Of a stretch of 64,000 nt of DNA, positions 17,911 through 28,932 are shown one piece after another. Position 1 is the stretch's first letter; the number at the start of each line of letters is the position of its first letter. Origin of the DNA: a virus (Duplodnaviria > Caudoviricetes); the IMG/VR virus record IMGVR_UViG_3300014204_000114, positions 96,001-160,000 of that record. One strand, given 5' to 3'. Position numbers and translations under genes: made by a program. The notes under the pieces are model-generated. The model saw nothing but the letters and a program-made list of their open reading frames with translations. It did no database searches and was not told the origin of the DNA.

Positions 17911-18095
17911 GTTTTAGAGTAACAGACGAATGTATTAATTGCGGTATGTGCGAGGCTGATTGCCCCGTAGAGGCTATAACTTCTGACGGAGGGAAGTGTA
18001 GTATAGACCCAACCAAATGCGTTGAGTGTAAATATTTCTACGAAGAACCTCAGTGTGTGTCTAATTGTCCTGTAGGAGCCCACGAAAAGGTATGA
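17907..18095 (+). CDS. 2[4Fe-4S] ferredoxin (YfhL-like)
   Basis: CINCGMC...CP and CVEC(8 aa)C...CP. Confidence 0.9.
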
Positions 18096-18871
18096 GCGTA
18101 GAGACATTCAAAAAGAAAGTTGAAGAAGGATTTGCCAAAAAGATCTTAACCAAAGGATTCTCCCGGGAGATTAAAGATAAGTACCGTAAACAGCTTGATT
18201 ATGAGATAGAGATCATAACTAGGATGGGGTTTGCGGATTACTTTTTAATACTTCAAGACATGATCGGCTGGGCTAAAGGTGAGAATATACTTATAGGTCC
18301 TGGAAGAGGATGTTTACATCCAAGCGTATTTATCAGGACTCTCAAAGGGTTAATAAAAATCAAGAATATAAGAGTAGGAGACGAAGTATTATCTGATGAT
18401 AACAAGTATCATAAAGTATTAAAAGTATTCAGTTATGAAGTCGAAGAAGACTTAGTACAGATCAATACTTATAAGAAGATGACCGACCAGTTATTTACTA
18501 AAGATCACAAGATATTATGTATCAAAGACAAGAAAGCCAGAACTTGGATTAAAGCTAAAGATATATCCGCGGGGGACTTCCTGATAAGACCGCCAAGTAC
18601 GCTTCTAAAAGTTCGCTCTACAAGTATACTAGAGGGATATAGAGGTTTAGTCCATGATCTACAAGTAGAAAAGACTGCTAATTTCTGTACCGAAGGATTT
18701 ATAGTACATAACTCTGCTAGCGGAAGTTTAATTACATACGTATTAGGGATAACGACGATTGATCCTTTGAAATACAATTTGATTTTTGAACGTTTTCTTA
18801 ATCCAGGAAGACATTGGAGATATAAGATGGACTTCCCGGAGTTAACTTATCAGCAGTTCAAGGAGATATGA
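18092..18871 (+). CDS. dnaE: DnaE piece 2: N-terminal palm segment with a mini-intein
   Basis: [20 protein letters not shown]|intein|[26 protein letters not shown], then a stop before PDID. The likely start is ATG 18092. Confidence 0.9.
18311..18712 (+). mobile_element. 134 aa mini-intein without endonuclease
   Basis: CLHPSV...TKDHKI...VHDLQV...IVHN|S within the GRG-SA motif. Confidence 0.9.
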
Positions 18872-19349: not shown

Positions 19350-19422
19350 TCCCGGGTCGCTCAATTGGTAGGGCACGCGGTTACTCATCGCGAGGTTGTA
19401 GGTTCAAATCCTGCCCCGGGAG
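19350..19422 (+). tRNA. tRNA with anomalous anticodon loop (ACT), identity undetermined
   Basis: Acceptor tcccggg/cccggga + G73, canonical D and T arms, anticodon arm cgcgg-ttACTca-tcgcg, short variable loop, no encoded CCA. Confidence 0.7.
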
Positions 19423-19454
19423 CACTGCCAATTTTATCTGTAAAGGAAAAGAAG

Positions 19455-20064: not shown

Positions 20065-20093
20065 TTGACTTGTTAAAGTAAAGAAGTTATACT
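20065..20093 (+). promoter_or_regulatory. sigma70 promoter; predicted TSS about 20100 coincides with an ATG
   Basis: TTGACT-17-TATACT. Confidence 0.75.
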
Positions 20094-20099
20094 ACAGAT

Positions 20100-20141
20100 A
20101 TGAAGATAGAATTCAGCTAGATTCAACGTGCCCCGCCTTGA
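20100..20141 (+). CDS. putative leaderless leader peptide MKIEFS-(TAG)-IQRAPP-(TGA)
   Basis: atg aag ata gaa ttc agc TAG att caa cgt gcc ccg cct TGA. The RAPP arrest motif is reached only by amber readthrough. Confidence 0.6.
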
Positions 20142-20198
20142 TTCTCCTTGGCATGGAATTGGTTTATAGTAATGATTTGAACAATAAAATAAGGAGAA
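20142..20198 (+). promoter_or_regulatory. anti-SD/SD pair (putative translational attenuator)
   Basis: ttctcctt (20142-20149) is the exact reverse complement of aaggagaa (20191-20198), the SD for ATG 20204. Confidence 0.6.
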
Positions 20199-20203
20199 AA
20201 CAT

Positions 20204-20590
20204 ATGCATCCATATACAGAAAAGAAATTAGAACTTAAAGAAATAGCCAAGAAAATAGTAGTCCTAAAATTCCAACGTAAACCTAACAATAATACTTCAG
20301 GCAAAACACAAAGCGAAATTATTGACACTCTCTTCGACTCTAAACTCGAATACAGGATGAAGCATATTATTTACTGTTTGGCCAGAGGTCGTACGATGGA
20401 ACAGATAGAGAATAAAGTTAGCAAATCTAATAAGTTAGATAAGTATAAGTTATCACATATTGATGGGGCCTTCAAAGTTCTAAAGAAAGAAGCAGCCGAA
20501 TACGAAACTAAGTTGTTAGCAGAACGAAAAGATAAGAAAGAGAAAAGGAATGAAACTGTACGTAGTAACGAGGCGAGACTTACTGCCTAG
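20204..20590 (+). CDS. hypothetical basic helical phage protein
   Basis: SD aaggag + ATG 20204, motif EYRMKHIIYCLARGRTMEQIE, ends in TAG and overlaps the next gene. Confidence 0.7.
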   Translation: MHPYTEKKLELKEIAKKIVVLKFQRKPNNNTSGKTQSEIIDTLFDSKLEYRMKHIIYCLARGRTMEQIENKVSKSNKLDKYKLSHIDGAFKVLKKEAAEYETKLLAERKDKKEKRNETVRSNEARLTA

Positions 20591-20834
20591 TCAACAGGTG
20601 GTTCAAGTCGCTCACGTAGTAGCTAAATATATGCTAGAGAATCCAGGAGAGTGGAATAACGAGACTCTCGTGATTTATGGTGTAAGTAATGAGGTTGAAT
20701 TAGAATCTATATTAAATTCTCTTAAGAAGAGATATGTAAATCATTCCGAATCCAGAGAGCCTGACATGGGCTTGTCTCTAACGGGGATAGCAAGTACGAG
20801 CAGAAATGTTTTTAATAAGTTAAAACTGCTCTAG
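20550..20834 (+). CDS. peptidyl-tRNA hydrolase 2 (Pth2)-like protein
   Basis: KLYVVTRRDL.PSQQVVQVAH...W.NETLV...V.NE.EL...REPD....LTGIA, the Pth2-fold signature. Confidence 0.75.
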   Translation: MKLYVVTRRDLLPSQQVVQVAHVVAKYMLENPGEWNNETLVIYGVSNEVELESILNSLKKRYVNHSESREPDMGLSLTGIASTSRNVFNKLKLL

Positions 20835-20903
20835 TCGCTCAAATAGATAGGGCAAACGTCTCTAAAACGTAGTATGTTGGTTAGAGTCCAACCTATGGCA
20901 CCA
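20828..20903 (+). tRNA. amber suppressor-type tRNA (anticodon CTA)
   Basis: Acceptor gctctag/ctatggc (one mismatch) + ACCA, D stem gctc/gggc, anticodon arm aacgt-ctCTAaa-acgta, T arm gttgg-ttagagt-ccaac. Confidence 0.75.
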
Positions 20904-20924
20904 AATTTTATAAGGAGAAATAAA

Positions 20925-21119
20925 TTGGAAGAACAAAAGAAAGAAACAACTGAAGAATCAAAAGGGTTTAAATCTCTTATCGGGTTACTACTGACCGTAG
21001 CTGTATTTATATCTCTGATATACTTGCCTACAGCAGTAGTAAAGATTGTAGATTTTCAGAAACATAATTCGCCGACTGAAGTTACGATGACTATCGGAGT
21101 AACAGAAACGACAAAGTAA
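20925..21119 (+). CDS. small membrane protein
   Basis: SD aaggag + TTG, one TM helix LIGLLLTVAVFISLIYL. Confidence 0.6.
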   Translation: MEEQKKETTEESKGFKSLIGLLLTVAVFISLIYLPTAVVKIVDFQKHNSPTEVTMTIGVTETTK

Positions 21120-21130
21120 AAGGAGTTAAT

Positions 21131-21751
21131 ATGCCCAGAGGAAAAGTAAAAGAAAAAGTATTAAAGCTGTCAGATTTTACAGAATTTGGTATGCCCGATC
21201 CTATTTATAGAGCTAAGTTTATCGAGGGGGGCATAGAGATAGACTGGGGTATGCTCGGCGATTTACATGAACAGTACCGGGTATTCTTCTATACTAATAA
21301 TAAGGATACGAATCTACTTTTATTCTCCTTAAAAGGGAATAAAAAGGGTCAAGTGCAGGGATTTGAGATAGAAGCAGCTTCAGGTAAGGCTCCATATTAT
21401 ATCCATTGCGATTCATTTTTTAGAGTTGCAAAGTTCCCAATAGAAAAATATAAAAACAAATACTACAGAGTTTCAAATATTAAGCTTGACGGCGTTAGCT
21501 TATTTAAGATCGATTTGTCTATCGAAGTGACCGAAGCAGGATGGGAAGCATCCATAGTAAAAGGTCCTATTCGTAAATCACGTAAAGGAATAAAGCTTGG
21601 ACCCAGAAAGAAACCCGAGATTGAAGCTGTTCAGGAAAAGCCTCAAGAAAAGCCTGCTTATAGGAAATTAGATCTTGGAGATCAAAGACCTGCGGTGCCG
21701 CAATTCTCTAAAGCAATGGGCGAAAAAGTATTAAAATCATTCACAGAGTGA
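21131..21751 (+). CDS. hypothetical protein
   Basis: 206 aa, SD aggag. Confidence 0.65.
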   Translation: MPRGKVKEKVLKLSDFTEFGMPDPIYRAKFIEGGIEIDWGMLGDLHEQYRVFFYTNNKDTNLLLFSLKGNKKGQVQGFEIEAASGKAPYYIHCDSFFRVAKFPIEKYKNKYYRVSNIKLDGVSLFKIDLSIEVTEAGWEASIVKGPIRKSRKGIKLGPRKKPEIEAVQEKPQEKPAYRKLDLGDQRPAVPQFSKAMGEKVLKSFTE

Positions 21752-22485
21752 GGGATAATATGCCAGTAGAAAAAGTAAAATTAGAAGACATAAGAGAAAA
21801 GTATATCTCAGGCATGAATATGCGAGAAATAGGGAGTTACTACGGCGTGACATATCAGGCCGTTGCGGACAGATTAAAAAGGGCAGGAGTCCCACGAAGA
21901 GGAAGAGGAGCTCCTGTGTCCAAAGAAAGGATTAAAGCTGAGAGTCTGCTGAATGATGACCTTTTAAGGTACTTAAAGCATGACCTTAAGCTTACAAATA
22001 AACAAATCGCCGAAAGAATAAAAGTACCCGCTCAAACAGTTGGAAGTATAGCAGTAAAAAGAGGCATCCTTTATGAGCCTTCTAAAGAAGATAAGTACCA
22101 CATAGCCAGACCTAATGGGGTTAAACAAATATTTAATACTCCCGCTAAACAGGAAAAGCTTAAAGCGGACATTAAGAAGTACTATTACGAATTAGGTTTG
22201 TCTGTAAACGATACTGCAGAGAAAGTAGGCGTAAGCTGGCGGACAGTACTTCGCTGGATGAATTACTGGAACATGGAAAGAAGAAGCCGGAATATGATCT
22301 TCCCTTATCTAGATAAGGCTCAGAAGCAAGAGCTTAAAGCCAATATTAAAAGGATGTATCTGAAAGAAAGAATGACTACTTTTGAAGTGGCTGAAAAATT
22401 AAATACTACTGCTAGTACTATCGGCAGATGGATGGATATATTCGGAATTAAAAAGAGAGGTAACAGAAAGAGAGCTATCAAGTGA
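21748..22485 (+). CDS. multi-HTH DNA-binding protein
   Basis: Four repeats of the type Y...GxS...IA...GVS..TV.RW....I.RR. Confidence 0.7.
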   Translation: MRDNMPVEKVKLEDIREKYISGMNMREIGSYYGVTYQAVADRLKRAGVPRRGRGAPVSKERIKAESLLNDDLLRYLKHDLKLTNKQIAERIKVPAQTVGSIAVKRGILYEPSKEDKYHIARPNGVKQIFNTPAKQEKLKADIKKYYYELGLSVNDTAEKVGVSWRTVLRWMNYWNMERRSRNMIFPYLDKAQKQELKANIKRMYLKERMTTFEVAEKLNTTASTIGRWMDIFGIKKRGNRKRAIK

Positions 22486-23828: not shown

Positions 23829-26663
23829 ATGCACAGCTACTTCTCAGAAAAAGCTAGTAAGATTATAGGATGGATAGACTTTGATAGATTAATTGAGCTG
23901 GAGAATCAAGATGAGTTCTATATAGAACTGGATAACTATGATTTCCACGATAAGTTCTCCGGAGAAAGATTTCTAGATTATTTAATCTATCTTAAAGTCA
24001 AGGATATTAAAGTCTCCAATCCTAATAATTCTTGTGTAGCATGGGTTACAGGCGTTACTGACGATAAGCCTGTAGCTTTGCCTGAAAGGGAGATTGGGTC
24101 CTTGCCTGACGTAGATATAGACGTATCGAAGGATCACAGGCAGGATGTTATAGATTATCTTGTATCCAAATATGGCAAGGATAATGTAGCGCCTATAGCC
24201 ACCTTCAATTCATTTGCCCTCAAATCAGCTATAAGGGCCGTAGCGAGGACTTTGGAATACCCCTATGAGATAGGCGATAAGCTATCAAAGATGTCTCCTG
24301 ACCCCGTGCAGGGCAAAAATCTGACATTTTTAGAAGCTCTTGAGGAAGTTCCTGAGCTTAAACGGATATACGAAGAAGGTGGAGAGGGGTTTAATGGCGA
24401 CGCCCAAAAAATATTAAAGGAAGTAAAGCTAATAGAAGGTATTATATCTTCTGTTGGTACGCATGCTTCCGGAGTAGTTATTTCTCCGTTTACATTAACC
24501 GATCTATTACCTCTACAGCTTAATAATAAAGATATGACTGTCGTCCAGTACGATATGGAGGATGTAGAGGCTTTAGGATTAGTAAAGTTTGATATATTGG
24601 GGATTAAAACTTTAACTACGTTAAAGATGTGCGCGGATTTTATAAAAGAAAGATTCAATATCACTATAGATTTTGAGAATATACCTTTGGATGATCCTAA
24701 TGTTTACAAGATGATATGCGAGGGATTCCTCTTAGGAATATTCCAGCTTGAAACTTCTTCCGGCATGAGACAAATAGTAAAACAGATACAGCCTAAATGC
24801 ATAGAAGATCTATCAGATATATTAGCTATATATAGACCTGGTCCTCTGGGTAGTTCCGAGCTTAAGAATTATTTAGAATGTAAGACTACAGGCAAGGAAC
24901 CAAAGTATGCCCACCCTGCATTAGAACCTATCCTTAAACCGACTTCCGGATTGATGCTTTATCAAGAGCAAATTATGAGAATAGCCAGGGATATATGTGG
25001 GTACACAATGGTCGAGGGCGATTCTCTGAGAAAATGTGTGTCTGGAGATACTTTATTCTGGACTCAAGATGGCTATAAACACATAAAAGATATGGTGCGT
25101 AATAGAAAAAGAAATACTGCTCGTACTTTAACGAATTATGAAATCGTGGATAATAAAATTGATAATGCTTTTAAGTCGGGGATAAAGGACACTATAAAAA
25201 TAATTACAGAAAGCAGATCTGAGATAATATGTACTCCGGATCATGAGATATTTACTAATGAAGGATATATTCAAGCCAAAGACTTAACTAGAGCTCATTA
25301 TTTATTACACGATATTACTGAAAAGTATGGCACGTACGACATAGACGAAGATTTATTGTTTTTAATAGCGGCTCTCGTTACAGAAGGACATACTGGTAAA
25401 AACGCTTGGTATTTTTGTAATAAAGATAAAATTTACATAGATAAATTCATAGATGCATTTTACAATATTTTCAAATACATTCCTAAGACACATATAGGCG
25501 GAAATGATGTTATTTATGTTCAAATAAAAGCTGACGCCAGTAAATATTTAACAGATAATTTCCCATCAATAGTCGGCACTAGCGCTTTTAAGTCTTTACC
25601 GTTTGATTTTCTTAATTTAGTACAAGAGAAACATCTCAAATTGCTAAGCTGGATGATAGATTTTGATGGATGGGCAGATGATAGACACATAGCTTACTGT
25701 ACTAAATCAATTAAACTAGCAGCACAAGTTAAATTACTATTTGAAAATATAGGTTGCGGGGCTTATATACTTAATAAAAAAGTTAAAGGATACGGTATAT
25801 TTTATAATGTGCATATTGGAGATAGACAAGATATCTTAAGAGCTAAAAATAAATTAATATATTCAGAGAAAATATCCTCTAAAAACTTTTCTACTACCAG
25901 AGACGCTAAAAGAAATTATGTATCTAAGTATACTATACCTTCTAATATATACAAACCTATTATTGATTCTATAATAAAACAGTCTGGATATAGCAGAAAT
26001 GAATTAGTAGGAAAAAATATATCTGGTTCTTATTTTTCCGGGCCATTAGGTATAGATAGACTGTCTGATATTTTGTCGGTTTGCGGGCGCTCGAAAGAAT
26101 TAGAATTTTATTTAAATAGAGAGGTTTATTGGGATAAAATTCGATCGATAACTCCAAATGGGGAGATCGATGTGTATGACTTTAGTATGACAGAAAGATC
26201 TAGTCCTCGTGCATTTGCTAATAACATACTTATACATAATTGCGTAGGAAAGAAAAAAGCAGAGGAGTTATTAAAACACGAGGAAAAGTTCGTATCTGGC
26301 GGAATTAGATTGGGTTTTCCAGAGAAAATGCTCAGAGATTTATTTAACAATATCAAGAGCTTTGGGGCGTATGGATTCAATAAATGTCTAACTGGGGACA
26401 CTAAAGTAAAAACTCCAGACGGTATAAAGGCTATCGAAAGCTTAAAAGTCCCATGTACTTTGTTATCGATGGACGCTAATAACAATATTATCGAAAATGA
26501 GTGTGTCGAAAAAATAGATTGCGGAGAACAAGACGTATATGAAATTGAATTTAGCGATAGCTGTATCATAAAATGTACCCTAGATCATAAGTTCATGTGT
26601 GGTGATAATAAAATGCATAGCGTGAGGGATATTATAAAAGATGACTTGACAGTTCTAGCTTAG
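23829..26663 (+). CDS. dnaE: DnaE piece 3: catalytic palm/thumb/fingers with an internal intein and a C-terminal split IntN
   Basis: SLPDVDID, GTHASGVVI, GLVKFDILG, GIFQLE, YRPGPL, LYQEQIM, LRK|intein|CVGKKK, AYGFNK|IntN. Confidence 0.95.
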   Translation: MHSYFSEKASKIIGWIDFDRLIELENQDEFYIELDNYDFHDKFSGERFLDYLIYLKVKDIKVSNPNNSCVAWVTGVTDDKPVALPEREIGSLPDVDIDVSKDHRQDVIDYLVSKYGKDNVAPIATFNSFALKSAIRAVARTLEYPYEIGDKLSKMSPDPVQGKNLTFLEALEEVPELKRIYEEGGEGFNGDAQKILKEVKLIEGIISSVGTHASGVVISPFTLTDLLPLQLNNKDMTVVQYDMEDVEALGLVKFDILGIKTLTTLKMCADFIKERFNITIDFENIPLDDPNVYKMICEGFLLGIFQLETSSGMRQIVKQIQPKCIEDLSDILAIYRPGPLGSSELKNYLECKTTGKEPKYAHPALEPILKPTSGLMLYQEQIMRIARDICGYTMVEGDSLRKCVSGDTLFWTQDGYKHIKDMVRNRKRNTARTLTNYEIVDNKIDNAFKSGIKDTIKIITESRSEIICTPDHEIFTNEGYIQAKDLTRAHYLLHDITEKYGTYDIDEDLLFLIAALVTEGHTGKNAWYFCNKDKIYIDKFIDAFYNIFKYIPKTHIGGNDVIYVQIKADASKYLTDNFPSIVGTSAFKSLPFDFLNLVQEKHLKLLSWMIDFDGWADDRHIAYCTKSIKLAAQVKLLFENIGCGAYILNKKVKGYGIFYNVHIGDRQDILRAKNKLIYSEKISSKNFSTTRDAKRNYVSKYTIPSNIYKPIIDSIIKQSGYSRNELVGKNISGSYFSGPLGIDRLSDILSVCGRSKELEFYLNREVYWDKIRSITPNGEIDVYDFSMTERSSPRAFANNILIHNCVGKKKAEELLKHEEKFVSGGIRLGFPEKMLRDLFNNIKSFGAYGFNKCLTGDTKVKTPDGIKAIESLKVPCTLLSMDANNNIIENECVEKIDCGEQDVYEIEFSDSCIIKCTLDHKFMCGDNKMHSVRDIIKDDLTVLA
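25035..26240 (+). mobile_element. 402 aa intein with a LAGLIDADG endonuclease
   Basis: CVSGDT...TPDHEI...LIAALVTEG...WMIDFDG...VYDFSM...LIHN|C. Confidence 0.9.
26385..26660 (+). mobile_element. split intein N-half (92 aa)
   Basis: CLTGDTKV...GEQDVYEIEF...CTLDHKFM, then a stop. Confidence 0.9.
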
Positions 26664-26702: not shown

Positions 26703-27596
26703 ATGGAACAAACGAACACAATGAGACGTAGGCGTAATTTTTCTCCACCTAACAAAACAATTACAGACGACGATAAAAGATTTATGGTAGAACAGTACGT
26801 AACACATAAAAAATCAGCTAACGAAATATTAAAGATGTTTAACGGAAAGTTTAAAACTACTAAAACTGTTTATGACGTTCTAAAACAATTCGATATTAAA
26901 GGAAGAGAATTACAAGACTATATTAATATAGACCACCTATTCTTTTCAGAAATAAACACTTCAGCCAAAGCCTACATATTAGGCTTATTTATAACAGATG
27001 GTTGGGTAATATCTGATAAAGGGGCGTTCGGGATCCAATTAACAATGGAAGACGAGAATATAATCAAAATGATTAGAAAAGAACTTAAATCAGATACGAG
27101 TTTAGTAACATGTTATAAAAAACCATTCGAAGGTGCTAACGGAAATATATATCAACCTAAAGATATGATAAGATTCTTCGCCCATTCTAAGCAAATTGTT
27201 AACGATCTGTCTAGGTACGGCGTAATCAACAATAAGAGCGACAAGACGTTACTGCCTCTGATTGGCCCAAATTTTATGCCACATATGTTAAGAGGTATTT
27301 TAGACGGAGACGGCAGCGTGTATATACATGCTCAATCGAATAATCTATGTATTAGATTTATAGGAACGAGAGTCCTAGTAGCCCAAATCTCAATGTTTTT
27401 AGCCTTAGCATTAGGCGTAAAATATAACTATCCTAATATACGAACTAAACAAAAAGAGACATATATGGATATTTGTTATGTAGATTGGGAGAGTAAAGAA
27501 GAGGTCGAAAAAATAATAAGATATATATATAAGGACTCGGACGAAGACCATAGGATAAGAAGAAAATATGAGAAAGCTAAAGATTATATCATATAA
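26703..27596 (+). CDS. free-standing LAGLIDADG homing endonuclease between the split intein halves
   Basis: AYILGLFITDG and MLRGILDGDG motifs with an N-terminal HTH-like segment. Confidence 0.9.
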   Translation: MEQTNTMRRRRNFSPPNKTITDDDKRFMVEQYVTHKKSANEILKMFNGKFKTTKTVYDVLKQFDIKGRELQDYINIDHLFFSEINTSAKAYILGLFITDGWVISDKGAFGIQLTMEDENIIKMIRKELKSDTSLVTCYKKPFEGANGNIYQPKDMIRFFAHSKQIVNDLSRYGVINNKSDKTLLPLIGPNFMPHMLRGILDGDGSVYIHAQSNNLCIRFIGTRVLVAQISMFLALALGVKYNYPNIRTKQKETYMDICYVDWESKEEVEKIIRYIYKDSDEDHRIRRKYEKAKDYII

Positions 27597-28932
27597 AAAG
27601 GTAGGTACAAAAAAGACTTACAATCTTCGTATGATTAAGAAGCCACATAACTATATATTGGCTAATGGATTAGTTTCTGCTAACTCGCATAGCATTTCAT
27701 ATAGTTATATAACATACTTCACGTCTTACATGAAGTGTTATTACCCTACTGATTTTATGGCATCGTTATTATCTAATGAAGATAATCCTGATATGTTTAA
27801 GCAGTATCTTAGAGAATGTTCTGATTTAGGGTTAAAGATAATGCCGCCGGATATAAATGAATCCGATAGAGGGTTTAGACCTGCAGGGGATGATTCGAAT
27901 CCGGTTATCTATTTTGGTTTAAATGGTATTACAGGTATAGGATCTAAAGTCGTAGATGAGATATTGTTAGCCAGAGAATCCGGTCCTTTTATGAATATTA
28001 AAGATTTTGTTTCAAGAGTTAATACCAGAGTAGTTAATAAAGGCAAGAGAGAACTACTAGCCAAAATAGGCTGCTTTGATAAGTTTAATGTTAATAGAAG
28101 GGCTGTTGCTGAACAGCTAGAGGACTTAGTTGATTATGCGGCAAGAACAAGAACTTATAATGCCGCGCTGGATAAGTATCATGCTTATGTAGACAAGAGA
28201 AGAGAAGAAGGGAAAGATATAACAAAGGTCCCGCCTGCTAAACCTGTGTTCGAAAAGACTTATTCTCATGTGGAAAATTATATAGAGAAAGAGCTATGTG
28301 ATTTTGAAAGAGATTTCTTGGGGGCATACGTAACCAATCACCCGTTGATTAAGATAAGACAATTCAAGGGAGACTCTCAATATGTCATTTCGGACTTAAA
28401 GGATGACTATTATGTGGACCAGCCGATTCATCTCTACTGTATGGTAGAAGACGCCCGAAAGATAAAGACTAAGAATGGAACCAACATGGCGTTCCTGAAA
28501 ATCATAGACGAGTTTGATAGTATAGAATGCGTAGTGTTCCCTAAAGTGTATGAAGTATCTAAAAGTGTATTGGTAGATCCATATCTATCCGGCGCGTATT
28601 TTATCGAGGGAATGCTTCGACCTAACTATCAAGACAGATCTGTAATGAATGTTATAGCTAATAAGATAATGCCTATAGAAAGCAGTGAAGGATTAAGGCA
28701 TAACTATAAATTAATTCTTAAGCCTAATAAGACATTCCATAAGCTTCTTAAGATGAAACCTCTTCTAAAACGCCACAGAGCTTATGAGAATAACCTTAAT
28801 ATGATATCTCTTAAGATAGGCGACATCGAATTTGAATTCCGTAACTCAAGACAGTTCGAAGAAACAGGAAAGATCAGAGCTCTATTAAGAGAGAACGGCA
28901 TTGATGGAAATCTAGTATTGGAAAAACGTTAG
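27568..28932 (+). CDS. dnaE: DnaE piece 4: IntC (39 aa) fused to the C-terminal fingers/HhH/OB domains
   Basis: MRKLKII...HNYILANGLVSAN|SHSISYS..YMKCYYP, PPDINES, GLNGITGIG, ERDFLGAYVTNHP, TKNGTNMAF. Confidence 0.93.
   Translation: MRKLKIISYKKVGTKKTYNLRMIKKPHNYILANGLVSANSHSISYSYITYFTSYMKCYYPTDFMASLLSNEDNPDMFKQYLRECSDLGLKIMPPDINESDRGFRPAGDDSNPVIYFGLNGITGIGSKVVDEILLARESGPFMNIKDFVSRVNTRVVNKGKRELLAKIGCFDKFNVNRRAVAEQLEDLVDYAARTRTYNAALDKYHAYVDKRREEGKDITKVPPAKPVFEKTYSHVENYIEKELCDFERDFLGAYVTNHPLIKIRQFKGDSQYVISDLKDDYYVDQPIHLYCMVEDARKIKTKNGTNMAFLKIIDEFDSIECVVFPKVYEVSKSVLVDPYLSGAYFIEGMLRPNYQDRSVMNVIANKIMPIESSEGLRHNYKLILKPNKTFHKLLKMKPLLKRHRAYENNLNMISLKIGDIEFEFRNSRQFEETGKIRALLRENGIDGNLVLEKR

What the first reader, a model, noticed from the sequence alone, without database searches (positions are those of the whole stretch)
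20828..20903. Amber (CUA) tRNA in a phage whose genes here are not TAG-recoded, at the end of the same operon
Seen: a complete cloverleaf with loop CTCTAAA and encoded CCA. Long conserved genes in the window have no internal TAG, and TAG is used as a normal stop (for example at 26663 and 28932). The only meaningful in-frame TAG I found is in the uORF about 700 nt upstream. The D-loop (aaatagata) resembles tRNA-Arg, and CTCTAAA is one slip from the Arg(UCU) loop CTTCTAA. Inference: this may be a suppressor used for regulation or feedback rather than genome-wide recoding. Missing D-loop GG, T-loop TTAGAGT and two stem mismatches suggest weak activity.
Basis: partly seen in the sequence, partly recalled or inferred. 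Interest (0 to 1): 0.8.

Follow-up and report, generated by a model that had tools for sequence, protein, structure and literature searches.

The report
Self-monitoring amber suppressor tRNA cassette
A large phage that uses the normal genetic code carries a stop-codon-reading tRNA. This tRNA is the last part of a small operon, conserved in dozens of big phages, whose own translation seems to depend on that tRNA, which may explain why such phages keep 'orphan' suppressor tRNAs.

Summary
The tRNA(CUA) at 20828-20903 is real: ARAGORN finds it, and Rfam scores it 42.5 bits against a cut-off of 29. The 188-kb genome is 99% complete and is not TAG-recoded. TAG ends about 40 of 251 called genes. Reading TAG as sense gains no more open frame than the TGA control. 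No release factor or Gln/Glu- or Pyl-type synthetase gene was found.

The tRNA is not an orphan. The gene before it has a Pth2 (peptidyl-tRNA hydrolase) fold. In 73 of 80 phage loci with that gene, a tRNA(CUA) lies on the same strand, usually within 60 nt; none occurs in 49 control loci.

Upstream there is usually a conserved helical 'gene A'. In 43 of 72 distinct loci there is also a micro-ORF of the form M-x-TAG-[V/I]...R-[A/G/S]-P-P. Eleven controls gave 0-1 hits. Other loci place the amber inside or at the start of the Pth2-like gene.

Three whole module-bearing contigs are also standard-code. Each genome's only clear amber target is its own cassette.

Best reading: a suppressor wired as the trans-acting part of a UAG read-through switch. 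Its ultimate purpose is unknown. This copy is the most degenerate one seen.

The scan had already noted the leader and switch on this same genome (e1-5754735, e1-5754727), not on other DNA. I re-tested those notes here.

The parts
20065..20093 (+). Promoter-like site TTGACT-17-TATACT. It would start the transcript at or just before the leader's ATG, giving a leaderless or nearly leaderless mRNA.
   Evidence: Best match in the region, 10 of 12. The total number of such sites is not above shuffles, so this is a consensus match only.
20100..20141 (+). Leader micro-ORF M-K-I-E-F-S-TAG-I-Q-R-A-P-P-TGA. The RAPP arrest motif can be reached only by reading through the amber codon.
   Evidence: Sequence. 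It is the only TAG-gated arrest leader in the 188-kb genome. The same design occurs in 43 of 72 distinct module loci, against 0-1 in 11 controls.
20118..20120 (+). Gating amber codon, followed by A (ATT, Ile).
   Evidence: Across the leaders the base after the gating TAG is a purine in 59 of 61. For ordinary TAG stops of this phage it is 23 of 40. Fisher p = 1e-6.
20127..20138 (+). Codons for R-A-P-P. [quoted passage not shown]
   Evidence: The motif is seen in the sequence. The stall geometry is taken from PMC10951233 and PMC12992588 and was not tested here.
20142..20150 (+). Anti-Shine-Dalgarno UUCUCCUUG, directly after the leader's stop. It lies within reach of a ribosome stalled on RAPP.
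   Evidence: A 9-bp helix with 20190-20198 appears in both the MFE and the centroid structure. Anti-SD-like tetramers follow the stall motif in 14 of 43 leaders, against 15% of random windows.
20190..20198 (+). Shine-Dalgarno UAAGGAGAA of gene A, sequestered by the anti-SD.
20204..20590 (+). Gene A, 128 aa. A conserved all-helical protein of unknown function with the motif YR(H)xHI(A)YCxxRGRxxEQIE. It ends in TAG and overlaps the start of the next gene.
   Evidence: Homologues lie directly upstream of the Pth2-like gene in 45 of 80 loci by phmmer, and in 58 of 80 after one profile round. Alignment A2. AlphaFold pLDDT 90. No Pfam, PDB, Foldseek, VIA or Atlas match.
20550..20834 (+). Pth2-like gene, 94 aa. 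Its TAG stop (20832-20834) lies inside the acceptor stem of the tRNA.
   Evidence: 464 representative relatives. Profile hits to archaeal-type peptidyl-tRNA hydrolases at 7e-5 and 2e-4. 40 of 45 family members match Pfam PTH2 weakly. AlphaFold pLDDT 97.4. The top 14 Foldseek hits are all Pth2, TM 0.73-0.81.
20828..20903 (+). tRNA with anticodon CUA (20862-20864), discriminator A73 and encoded CCA. This is the amber-reading component of the cassette.
   Evidence: A tRNA(CUA) follows the Pth2-like gene on the same strand in 73 of 80 phage loci, with a median gap of 38 nt.

Best explanation
The tRNA is a genuine, though probably weak, UAG-decoding suppressor. Its identifiable job lies inside its own operon.

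**Proposed sequence of events**
1. The operon is transcribed from a promoter just before a 13-codon leader.
2. If RF1 wins at the leader's UAG, the ribosome leaves after six codons. The anti-SD stays paired with the Shine-Dalgarno of gene A, so gene A and the translationally coupled Pth2-like gene stay off.
3. If charged tRNA(CUA) wins, the ribosome reads on to R-A-P-P and stalls there. It then sits on the anti-SD and frees the Shine-Dalgarno.

The cassette therefore makes gene A and the Pth2-like hydrolase only when amber suppression is actually working in the cell. The tRNA is the trans-acting probe of a UAG read-through switch.

**Shown here**
- The tRNA and the standard genetic code of the genome.
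- The conserved four-part synteny.
- The amber-gated arrest-type leaders, with controls.
- Alternative placement of the amber inside or at the start of the Pth2-like gene in other phages.
- The Pth2 fold.

**Inferred**
- Expression and charging of the tRNA.
- Stalling at RAPP.
- The sign of the switch.
- What the two proteins then do. My leading guess is that the Pth2-like enzyme acts on tRNA esters produced by suppression, either deacylating the suppressor (a homeostat) or clearing peptidyl-tRNA by-products.
For: - **tRNA confirmed**.
- **Standard code.** ORF coverage is 0.884 under table 11, 0.916 with TAG as sense and 0.924 with TGA as sense. Two-part frames joined by TAG number 7, against 11 for TGA. 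Stops are TAA 139, TGA 72, TAG 40. TAG read-through extensions (median 7 aa) match TGA (median 6.5).
- **No recoding accessories.** No RF, Gln/GluRS or PylS-type gene in a 99%-complete genome.
- **Linkage.** tRNA(CUA) occurs in 73 of 80 Pth2-like loci, against 0 of 49 DnaE control loci, p = 2e-28. 42 of the 73 start within -10 to +60 nt of the Pth2-like stop. Four further loci and the Lak phages carry tRNA(UUA).
- **Leaders.** Present in 43 of 72 loci, against 0-1 in 11 controls. The cores are RGPP 9, RSPP 6, RAPP 4, RDPP 2, and xPP-stop or RSP-stop in the rest. The +4 purine bias is 59 of 61.
- **Amber inside the Pth2-like gene** in 9 loci. Two of these lie on contigs shown to be standard-code.
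- **Amber at the start of the Pth2-like frame** in 12 of 72 loci, against 1-2 in controls. The same is seen in cultured phages ME3, Cane17 and Myrna.
- **One target per genome.** There is one gated leader per genome, and it is the module's own.
- **Selection on structure.** The tRNA bodies are heterogeneous, but 62 of 66 keep 7 of 7 acceptor pairs and all keep the CUA loop. Selection therefore acts on UAG reading, not on one amino-acid identity.
- **SD/anti-SD helix**.
- **RxPP arrest biology** (PMC10951233, PMC12992588).
Against: - There are no expression, charging or stalling data; the phage is uncultured.
- This copy is the weakest of the family: 42.5 bits, two stem mismatches, and no G18G19/C56 elbow pair. 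It could be inactive.
- The leader region's overall fold energy is not better than shuffles, z = +0.99.
- Anti-SD enrichment across loci is modest, 0.33 against 0.15. The sign of regulation may therefore differ between phages.
- 18 of 72 loci show no recognisable amber gate.
- The circuit looks self-referential, so a real downstream purpose is missing from the explanation.
- The loci were collected through the Pth2-like gene. The reverse question, how many phage tRNA(CUA) genes have the module, was not measured.
Confidence: 0.6

Rival explanations
1. **General suppressor with a built-in governor.** The tRNA's main job is to read natural UAG stops of host and/or phage mRNAs. That could serve host take-over, C-terminal extensions, or a first step towards recoding. 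The leader, gene A and the Pth2-like enzyme would only keep its activity within tolerable limits or clear the by-products.
For: - 40 phage genes end in TAG, so a working suppressor would unavoidably touch them.
- The same Pth2-like gene sits beside a UAG-reading tRNA(UUA) in the Lak megaphages, which the literature describes as TAG-recoded. The cassette is therefore also used where suppression is global.
- A standard-code phage with a newly gained suppressor has been read as a step before code change (10.1101/2021.08.26.457843).
Against: - TAG-stop extensions are no different from the TGA control, and no extension looks coding.
- TAG is not depleted as a stop (16%), and back-up stops are not enriched.
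- The XacN1 authors also found nothing behind amber stops (PMC5852040).
- The heterogeneous tRNA bodies argue against a need for a defined amino acid.
Confidence: 0.2
2. **Decaying relic in this phage.** The cassette was inherited, but this copy of the tRNA no longer works. With the leader's UAG always terminating, gene A and the Pth2-like gene would be silent or expressed some other way.
For: - It has the lowest covariance score of 21 compared copies: 42.5 bits against 46.9-67.4.
- C4.U69 and A27.A43 are mismatched, the D loop has no GG, and A replaces C56.
- It has 6 of 7 acceptor pairs, where 62 of 66 relatives have 7 of 7.
Against: - All other parts are intact. The leader has a perfect RAPP and anti-SD. 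Gene A keeps the family motif. The Pth2-like protein keeps every invariant residue (Q19, H22, W35, N37, E70).
- The anticodon loop CUCUAAA and the encoded CCA are intact.
- This phage's other tRNAs also score low, 49.7-51 bits, so divergence may be a lineage trait.
Confidence: 0.12
3. **Conventional recoding.** The phage reads TAG as an amino acid in part of its genome, for example in late genes, and the tRNA serves that purpose.
For: This is the usual context of phage tRNA(CUA) genes. One 8-kb bin (genome 48-56 kb) gained ORF coverage with TAG read as sense.
Against: - Whole-genome tests are negative.
- The frames joined by TAG in the 48-56 kb bin look non-coding and carry several TAGs each.
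- The structural, tail and glycan genes are open under table 11.
- No RF2 or synthetase gene was found.
Confidence: 0.03
4. **Anti-defence tRNA.** The tRNA is a decoy or a nuclease-resistant replacement, directed against host anticodon nucleases or other enzymes that attack tRNA. It would not be a decoder of UAG.
For: Phage tRNA islands are often explained this way. The island also holds an odd tRNA with the loop UUACUCA. 9 of 66 family members have C33 in place of U33.
Against: - The one thing conserved across 66 different tRNA bodies is the CUA (or UUA) anticodon loop.
- The cassette carries in-frame UAG codons in read-through-favouring context.
- A replacement tRNA would keep a sense anticodon.
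Confidence: 0.05

Closest known systems
Suppressor tRNAs of TAG-recoded phages (genetic code 15: crAss-like, Lak and others; 10.1101/2021.08.26.457843, PMC9523058)
   Same: A phage-encoded tRNA with a CUA anticodon that must compete with host RF1. The same Pth2-like gene is found beside a UAG-reading tRNA(UUA) in Lak megaphages.
   Different: Here no gene outside the cassette contains an in-frame TAG. TAG ends 16% of genes. There is no RF2 or synthetase gene. The amino-acid identity of the tRNA body is not conserved across the family.
'Orphan' suppressor tRNAs reported in standard-code jumbo phages (XacN1, PMC5852040; Atu_ph07, PMC6102473; the 'tRNA-OTHER, anticodon CTA' of Acinetobacter phage ME3)
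   Same: A standard-code large phage with a suppressor tRNA inside a tRNA island and no read-through targets found behind ordinary stop codons.
   Different: Those reports list the tRNA and, separately, a peptidyl-tRNA hydrolase, without linking them. Here the two are adjacent, co-oriented and joined by amber-gated leaders in dozens of phages. In ME3 the link is visible on re-reading the record. In XacN1 the Pth2-like domain is fused into a longer protein far from the tRNAs.
RAPP/RGPP arrest peptides (ApdA, ApdP, ApcA, SecM-type RAGP; PMC10951233, PMC12992588, PMC7897499)
   Same: A C-terminal R-[A/G/S/D]-P-P core on a small upstream ORF, followed by a regulated downstream gene whose Shine-Dalgarno is masked.
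   Different: Known examples monitor protein export or membrane insertion through a long N-terminal domain. Here the peptide is only 8-31 residues long, and the input is whether a UAG codon placed before the motif is read through.
prfB (RF2) autoregulation through an early in-frame UGA (my own knowledge, not checked here)
   Same: An in-frame stop codon early in a reading frame serves as a sensor of the balance between termination and an alternative decoding event.
   Different: prfB escapes the stop by a +1 frameshift and senses RF2 itself. Here the escape is by a dedicated suppressor tRNA, and the output is an arrest that unmasks a downstream gene.
Pth2, the archaeal/eukaryotic-type peptidyl-tRNA hydrolase (Pfam PF01981; PDB 2zv3, 3erj, 1q7s, 1xty)
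   Same: Same fold, TM 0.73-0.81. Shared sequence motifs VR.DL and Q..HA, and an acidic residue at the DAG position.
   Different: It is shorter (94 aa) and lacks the GKGK loop. It scores below Pfam's threshold, 14.6 against 23 bits. It has its own invariant W35, N37 and E70-P71-D72. Its substrate is unknown.

Membership tests
tRNA (Rfam RF00005) | Cloverleaf that scores above the family's gathering score | tested here: met
   42.5 bits against 29, with full model coverage 1-71. ARAGORN also calls it.
Amber suppressor tRNA | Anticodon CUA in a 7-nt loop with U33 and a purine at position 37 | tested here: met
   Loop C-U-C-U-A-A-A at 20860-20866.
Amber suppressor tRNA | Is aminoacylated and inserts an amino acid at UAG | not testable with these tools
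   Needs an amber reporter, acid-gel Northern blots or mass spectrometry.
Suppressor of a TAG-recoded (code 15) phage | Many genes, especially late ones, carry in-frame TAG, and coding density is low under table 11 | tested here: not met
   Coverage is 0.884 under table 11. The gain with TAG as sense is no larger than with TGA as sense. TAG-joined frames number 7, TGA-joined 11.
Suppressor of a TAG-recoded (code 15) phage | TAG no longer used as a stop | tested here: not met
   About 40 of 251 genes end in TAG, including two DnaE pieces.
tRNA-Pyl (ARAGORN's label) | Pyl-type body (very short D loop, 3-nt variable loop, 6-bp anticodon stem) and a pylS gene | tested here: not met
   It has a 9-nt D loop, a 4-nt variable loop and a 5-bp anticodon stem. 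There is no class II PylS/PheRS-type domain in the genome. The label follows only from the anticodon.
RAPP/RGPP-type regulatory arrest peptide (the operon's leader) | R-[A/G]-P-P core at the C-terminal end of a small ORF upstream of a co-oriented gene | tested here: met
   The leader reads ...I-Q-R-A-P-P-stop at 20121-20141, 62 nt before gene A. Related cores occur in 43 of 72 loci.
RAPP/RGPP-type regulatory arrest peptide (the operon's leader) | [quoted passage not shown] | not testable with these tools
   Needs toeprinting or PURE translation. The geometry is taken from PMC10951233.
Pth2 peptidyl-tRNA hydrolase (PF01981), the tRNA's conserved neighbour | Pth2 fold | tested here: met
   pLDDT 97.4. 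The top 14 Foldseek hits are all Pth2, probability 1.0, TM 0.73-0.81.
Pth2 peptidyl-tRNA hydrolase (PF01981), the tRNA's conserved neighbour | Scores above Pfam's gathering score and keeps the catalytic residues | tested here: inconclusive
   14.6 bits against 23 for this protein. 40 of 45 relatives match weakly, best E 2e-6. The R/D/Q/H motifs are kept, the GKGK loop is absent, and E70 aligns with the DAG aspartate.

The most novel reading that the evidence does not exclude
The cassette is a natural orthogonal sensor of translation termination.
- It uses a tRNA that reads no sense codon, kept only as a probe.
- It uses a leader that turns the outcome of the tRNA-versus-RF1 contest at one UAG into a ribosome arrest.
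- Its two effector proteins (gene A and a Pth2-like tRNA-ester hydrolase) act back on the suppressor or on termination. That gives the phage a homeostat or a bistable switch over the stop-codon reading of the infected cell.

This would be a new class of phage-encoded translational control. It would also be the likely evolutionary seed from which full TAG recoding, as in Lak phages, grows.
Probability: 0.3. Interest if true: 0.9.

Novelty: new variant of a known kind. Interest (0 to 1): 0.78.

Why it matters
Suppressor tRNAs in phages that do not use an altered code have been reported several times and left unexplained. The XacN1 authors, for example, looked behind every amber stop and found no target.

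The evidence here points elsewhere: the targets are amber codons built into the tRNA's own operon. They sit ahead of a ribosome-arrest motif or inside the neighbouring Pth2-like gene. The design is shared by at least 70 large phages from many environments, including cultured phages of Mycobacterium smegmatis and Acinetobacter baumannii.

If the reading is right:
- It links three topics that have been studied separately: phage suppressor tRNAs, RAPP-type arrest peptides and Pth2-type hydrolases.
- It offers a plausible first step on the road to stop-codon recoding.
- It provides a compact natural part (tRNA, leader and effector) of interest for genetic-code engineering.
- It is directly testable with reporters and with existing cultured phages.

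Tried and rejected
**Searches for close relatives: all negative**
- Megablast and blastn of the tRNA region against GenBank phages found nothing.
- The exact tRNA core in IMG/VR gave no match.
- Single-protein locus searches in IMG/VR with the Pth2-like protein and with the next gene downstream of the tRNA (21131-21751) found none.
- Word-based protein searches returned only the window's own proteins.
- A metagenome scan with gene A gave one short, distant hit.
I reached genomic context through `search for related loci` with the family alignment instead.
- Loci found through DnaE are only 30-45% identical and hold no tRNA(CUA). I kept them as a negative control.

**Function of gene A: nothing usable**
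- Pfam, the PDB profile search, Foldseek, VIA-wide and the protein atlas gave nothing beyond generic helical hairpins.

**Origin and amino-acid identity of the tRNA: undetermined**
- Comparing stem and T-loop positions with 317 other phage tRNAs gave no clear parent isotype.
- The Arg(UCU) slip idea is neither supported nor excluded.

**Candidate read-through fusions: rejected**
- At genome 70266-71111 and 71984-73039 the 'extension' starts at, or seven codons before, a methionine. They are adjacent genes in the same frame.
- The 48-56 kb bin is not a recoded island.

**Methods that failed or were set aside**
- My automated count of ambers 'internal' to the Pth2-like gene was confounded by genuine stop codons. 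I rely on the nine inspected cases.
- The idea that both operon genes ending in TAG is a designed feature is rejected as a family trait. Pth2-like stops across loci are TAA 49, TGA 19, TAG 12.
- The gene A profile found no homologue in the cultured phages.
Full report
**1.
ARAGORN finds four tRNA genes in the window. One is a 76-nt tRNA with anticodon CTA at 20828-20903 on the + strand. Rfam's tRNA model matches it end to end at 42.5 bits, against a gathering score of 29.

The loop is C-U-C-U-A-A-A, the discriminator is A, and CCA is encoded.
- The D loop AAAUAGAUA has no GG.
- The T loop is UUAGAGU.
- The covariance alignment marks two non-standard pairs, C4.U69 and A27.A43.

ARAGORN's label 'tRNA-Pyl' follows only from the anticodon. 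The body is an ordinary class I tRNA, and the genome has no PylS-type domain.

**2. The phage uses the standard code.**
The window lies at 96001-160000 of a single 187,794-bp contig, rated 99% complete.
- Coverage by long open frames is 0.884 under table 11. It is 0.916 with TAG as sense and 0.924 with TGA as sense, so TAG gains nothing beyond the control.
- Long frames made of two substantial parts joined by a stop number 7 for TAG and 11 for TGA. The two largest TAG cases are adjacent genes in one frame.
- A heuristic gene call gives 251 genes with stops TAA 139, TGA 72 and TAG 40. Read-through extensions after TAG have a median of 7 codons, like those after TGA at 6.5.
- One bin (48-56 kb) seemed to gain coverage with TAG as sense. 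It holds only non-coding-looking frames with several TAGs each.
- No RF1/RF2 domain and no Gln/Glu-type synthetase were found.

**3. The neighbourhood.**
The tRNA island (Tyr, Thr, an odd 'Ser(ACU)', then CUA) and about a dozen small genes lie between pieces of a DnaE-type polymerase gene that carries inteins and a LAGLIDADG endonuclease.

The tRNA(CUA) sits apart from the other three tRNAs, at the end of a compact + strand unit:
- A promoter-like TTGACT-17-TATACT at 20065-20093.
- A 13-codon micro-ORF at 20100-20141.
- A 128-aa ORF at 20204-20590.
- An overlapping 94-aa ORF at 20550-20834.
- The tRNA itself. Its first bases overlap the 94-aa ORF's TAG stop.

No terminator-like site separates these parts or follows the tRNA.

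**4. The 94-aa protein has a Pth2 fold.**
- An exhaustive HMMER search finds 464 representative relatives of about 95-100 aa.
- Their alignment has invariant Q19, H22, W35, N37 and E70. R8, D10, P71, D72 and T78 are nearly invariant.
- The profile hits archaeal-type peptidyl-tRNA hydrolases in the PDB at 7e-5 and 2e-4.
- 40 of 45 members match Pfam PTH2 weakly, below threshold.
- The AlphaFold model has pLDDT 97.4. Its 14 best Foldseek matches are all Pth2 proteins, TM 0.73-0.81.

It lacks the GKGK loop of canonical Pth2, so its substrate is open.

**5. The tRNA is one part of a conserved module.**
I used the family alignment to fetch 80 phage loci from IMG/VR.
- 73 of them have a tRNA(CUA) on the same strand as the Pth2-like gene.
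- Four more have a tRNA(UUA), which would also read UAG.
- The median gap from the Pth2-like stop to the tRNA is 38 nt, and 42 of 73 lie within -10 to +60 nt.
- By contrast, 49 phage loci collected through DnaE hold no tRNA(CUA) at all. Fisher p = 2e-28.
- In four whole contigs, each with 5 to 32 tRNA genes, there is exactly one suppressor, and it is the one in the module.

The 128-aa protein ('gene A') is conserved too:
- 45 of 80 upstream ORFs match it directly, and 58 of 80 match after one profile round.
- They share the motif YRHxHIAYCxLRGRxxEQIE.
- It folds confidently as a helical protein, pLDDT 90, but matches nothing informative.

**6. The module carries its own amber codons.**
I treated this as a lead and tested it with my own loci and controls.

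The window's leader reads M-K-I-E-F-S-TAG-I-Q-R-A-P-P-TGA. I searched for a pattern requiring a start, an early stop codon read as X, and then R-[AGSD]-P-P, x-P-P-stop or R-[AGS]-P-stop.
- It hits 43 of 72 distinct loci when X is TAG, on the module strand, in the 700 nt upstream.
- It hits 0 or 1 loci in each of eleven controls: opposite strand, TGA or TAA as X, or the downstream region.
- The cores are RGPP 9, RSPP 6, RAPP 4, RDPP 2, and proline-proline-stop or RSP-stop in the rest.
- The first TAG is most often at codon 3, and 15 of 45 leader matches have two or three TAGs.
- The base after a gating TAG is a purine in 59 of 61 cases and never U. For this phage's ordinary TAG stops it is a purine in 23 of 40, p = 1e-6. 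From my own knowledge of classical context effects, a purine after UAG favours suppression and U favours release.

Other loci put the amber elsewhere in the cassette:
- Nine have an in-frame TAG inside the Pth2-like gene, at non-conserved positions.
- Twelve of 72 open the Pth2-like frame with start-x-TAG, against 1-2 in controls.

Over whole genomes, the gated leader occurs once, in the module, in three of four contigs. The fourth has the module's leader plus two more, within the control background of 0-2.

**7. Carriers are standard-code phages.**
I examined three module-bearing contigs in full: 315 kb with terminal repeats, 161 kb (the first 160 kb) and 223 kb. All behave like our genome. 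Table 11 coverage is 0.86-0.92, and TAG-joined frames are fewer than TGA-joined ones. Two of the three have the amber inside the Pth2-like gene. That amber is therefore gene-specific and not part of a recoded genome.

The family also occurs in the Lak megaphages, there next to a tRNA(UUA). The literature describes Lak phages as TAG-recoded. The cassette is thus used in both settings.

**8. The tRNA family.**
The 66 distinct module-linked tRNA(CUA) genes have very different acceptor stems, discriminators (A 37, G 12, U 12, C 5), 1:72 pairs and variable arms. Yet 62 keep seven of seven acceptor pairs, and all keep the Y-N-C-U-A-A-N loop.

They are hardly closer to each other (mean best identity 0.75) than to sense tRNAs (0.70). 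Their nearest sense isotypes are mixed. Selection thus preserves a foldable tRNA that reads UAG, not one amino-acid identity. That fits ambers placed in leaders and loops, where the inserted residue matters little.

Our copy is the lowest-scoring of 21 compared, at 42.5 bits against 46.9-67.4. This phage's other tRNAs are also low, at 49.7-51 bits.

**9. Mechanism proposed.**
Established work shows three things (PMC10951233 and PMC12992588):
- The stall resists EF-P.
- A minimal RxPP motif can suffice.

In the window, the nine bases after the leader's stop (UUCUCCUUG, 20142-20150) pair with the Shine-Dalgarno of gene A (UAAGGAGAA, 20190-20198) in both the MFE and the centroid folds. A ribosome stalled on CCG/CCU (20133-20138) would cover that anti-SD.

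The inferred logic is:
1. RF1 wins at UAG. The ribosome is released early, the SD stays masked, and gene A and the coupled Pth2-like gene stay off.
2. tRNA(CUA) wins. The ribosome reads through, stalls, unmasks the SD, and both genes are translated.

The loci with the amber inside or at the head of the Pth2-like gene reach the same outcome by a simpler route: the Pth2-like protein is made only if suppression works.

What the proteins then do is not shown. A tRNA-ester hydrolase made in proportion to suppressor activity could deacylate the suppressor (negative feedback). It could instead clear peptidyl-tRNAs that arise from read-through.

The weak points are these:
- There are no expression data.
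- Anti-SD enrichment across loci is modest, 0.33 against 0.15.
- 18 of 72 loci have no recognisable gate.
- The circuit as described is self-referential.

**10. What is known.**
- Suppressor tRNAs are well described in recoded phages.
- They have been listed without explanation in standard-code jumbo phages. The XacN1 authors looked behind all 18 amber stops and found nothing. They mention a peptidyl-tRNA hydrolase separately (PMC5852040). Atu_ph07 is similar (PMC6102473).
- Full-text searches for the combination of suppressor tRNA, peptidyl-tRNA hydrolase and phage, and for mycobacteriophage peptidyl-tRNA hydrolase, found no paper that links them or describes amber-gated arrest leaders. Subscription journals are not covered.

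Cultured carriers exist:
- **Acinetobacter phage ME3.** An annotated 'tRNA-OTHER, anticodon CTA' lies about 450 nt upstream of gp266. The gp266 frame opens ATG-ACT-TAG-ATT.
- **Mycobacteriophages Cane17 and Myrna.** A gene annotated 'peptidyl tRNA hydrolase' in Cane17 (gp84 in Myrna) is followed by tRNA(CUA). A near-consensus promoter is placed so that the transcript would begin at (A/G)TG-TAG-GTG.
- None of these has a detectable gene A.

**11. Verdict.**

The tRNA by itself is a new member of a known kind. The conserved cassette to which it belongs appears to be an undescribed variant that combines a suppressor tRNA, an arrest leader and a Pth2-like enzyme.

The scan had already flagged the leader and the switch on this same genome (e1-5754735, e1-5754727). 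This report reaches the same architecture from the tRNA side and adds the following:
- The tRNA-Pth2 linkage statistics.
- The whole-genome code tests.
- The alternative positions of the amber.
- The heterogeneity of the tRNA bodies.
- The confirmed Pth2 fold.
- The cultured carriers.

Noticed in passing
window 19350-19423 (+): A well-formed 74-nt tRNA (51 bits) with the anticodon loop UUACUCA. It has A34, a pyrimidine at position 37, the nominal anticodon ACU (Ser) and a short variable arm, so SerRS would not be expected to charge it.
   Followed up: partly
window 18065-18871, 23829-26663, 26703-27596, 27568-28932 (+): The tRNA island and the suppressor cassette lie between collinear pieces of a DnaE-type DNA polymerase gene. 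That gene carries intein (Hint) domains and a free-standing LAGLIDADG endonuclease gene.
   Followed up: partly
window 20550-21119 (+): The Pth2-like reading frame continues through the tRNA into the next small membrane-protein ORF (20925-21119). Only TAG codons interrupt it (frame 116484-117119 in genome coordinates). This is probably coincidence, but with a working suppressor it would give a fusion product.
   Followed up: no
window 20828-20834 (+); L096, L100: The Pth2-like stop codon lies inside the tRNA's acceptor stem here and in two other loci. In about 35 more loci the gap is 0-30 nt. RNase P cutting would therefore trim the mRNA at or just after its stop codon, which may couple tRNA maturation to the fate of the mRNA.
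   Followed up: partly
L172 2936-2979 (Mycobacterium phage Cane17); L173 2933-2979 (Myrna): A near-consensus promoter (TTGACA-17-TACCGT in Cane17, TACAGT in Myrna) would start the transcript at (A/G)TG-TAG-GTG, in frame with the annotated 'peptidyl tRNA hydrolase'. On a leaderless mRNA this gives an amber at codon 2. The GGAGG-type SD upstream would serve only read-through transcripts.
   Followed up: partly
L174, L175 (Prevotella phages Lak-A1, Lak-B7); L113-L117: In Lak-type megaphages (GC about 25%) the Pth2-like gene is paired with a tRNA(UUA) about 700 nt upstream, not with a tRNA(CUA) downstream.
   Followed up: partly
L071, L086, L094, L101, L106, L121, L122, L123, L125: Nine module-linked tRNA(CUA) genes have C33 in place of the almost universal U33 (loops CCCUAAA or CCCUAAC).
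   Followed up: no
L168 (XacN1), L169 (Xoo-sp13), L130 (Stenotrophomonas RAS14): In these cultured jumbo phages the Pth2-like domain is the C-terminal part of a protein of about 260-280 aa. No tRNA is adjacent. In the two Xanthomonas phages it lies a few genes after a gene annotated as glutamyl-tRNA amidotransferase.
   Followed up: no
L077, L079, L081: The amber leader (M-K-TAG-S-I-R-S-P-V...) runs on in frame, without a stop, into gene A. Read-through would give an N-terminally extended gene A, not an arrest at a separate micro-ORF.
   Followed up: no
L059 5054-5404: A phage-encoded tmRNA (141 bits) lies 1.4 kb downstream of the suppressor cassette in one 248-kb phage contig.
   Followed up: no
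window 21748-22485 (+): A 245-aa protein with several helix-turn-helix units matches PHROG families annotated as HNH endonuclease. It may be a mobile-element gene within the island that splits DnaE.
   Followed up: no
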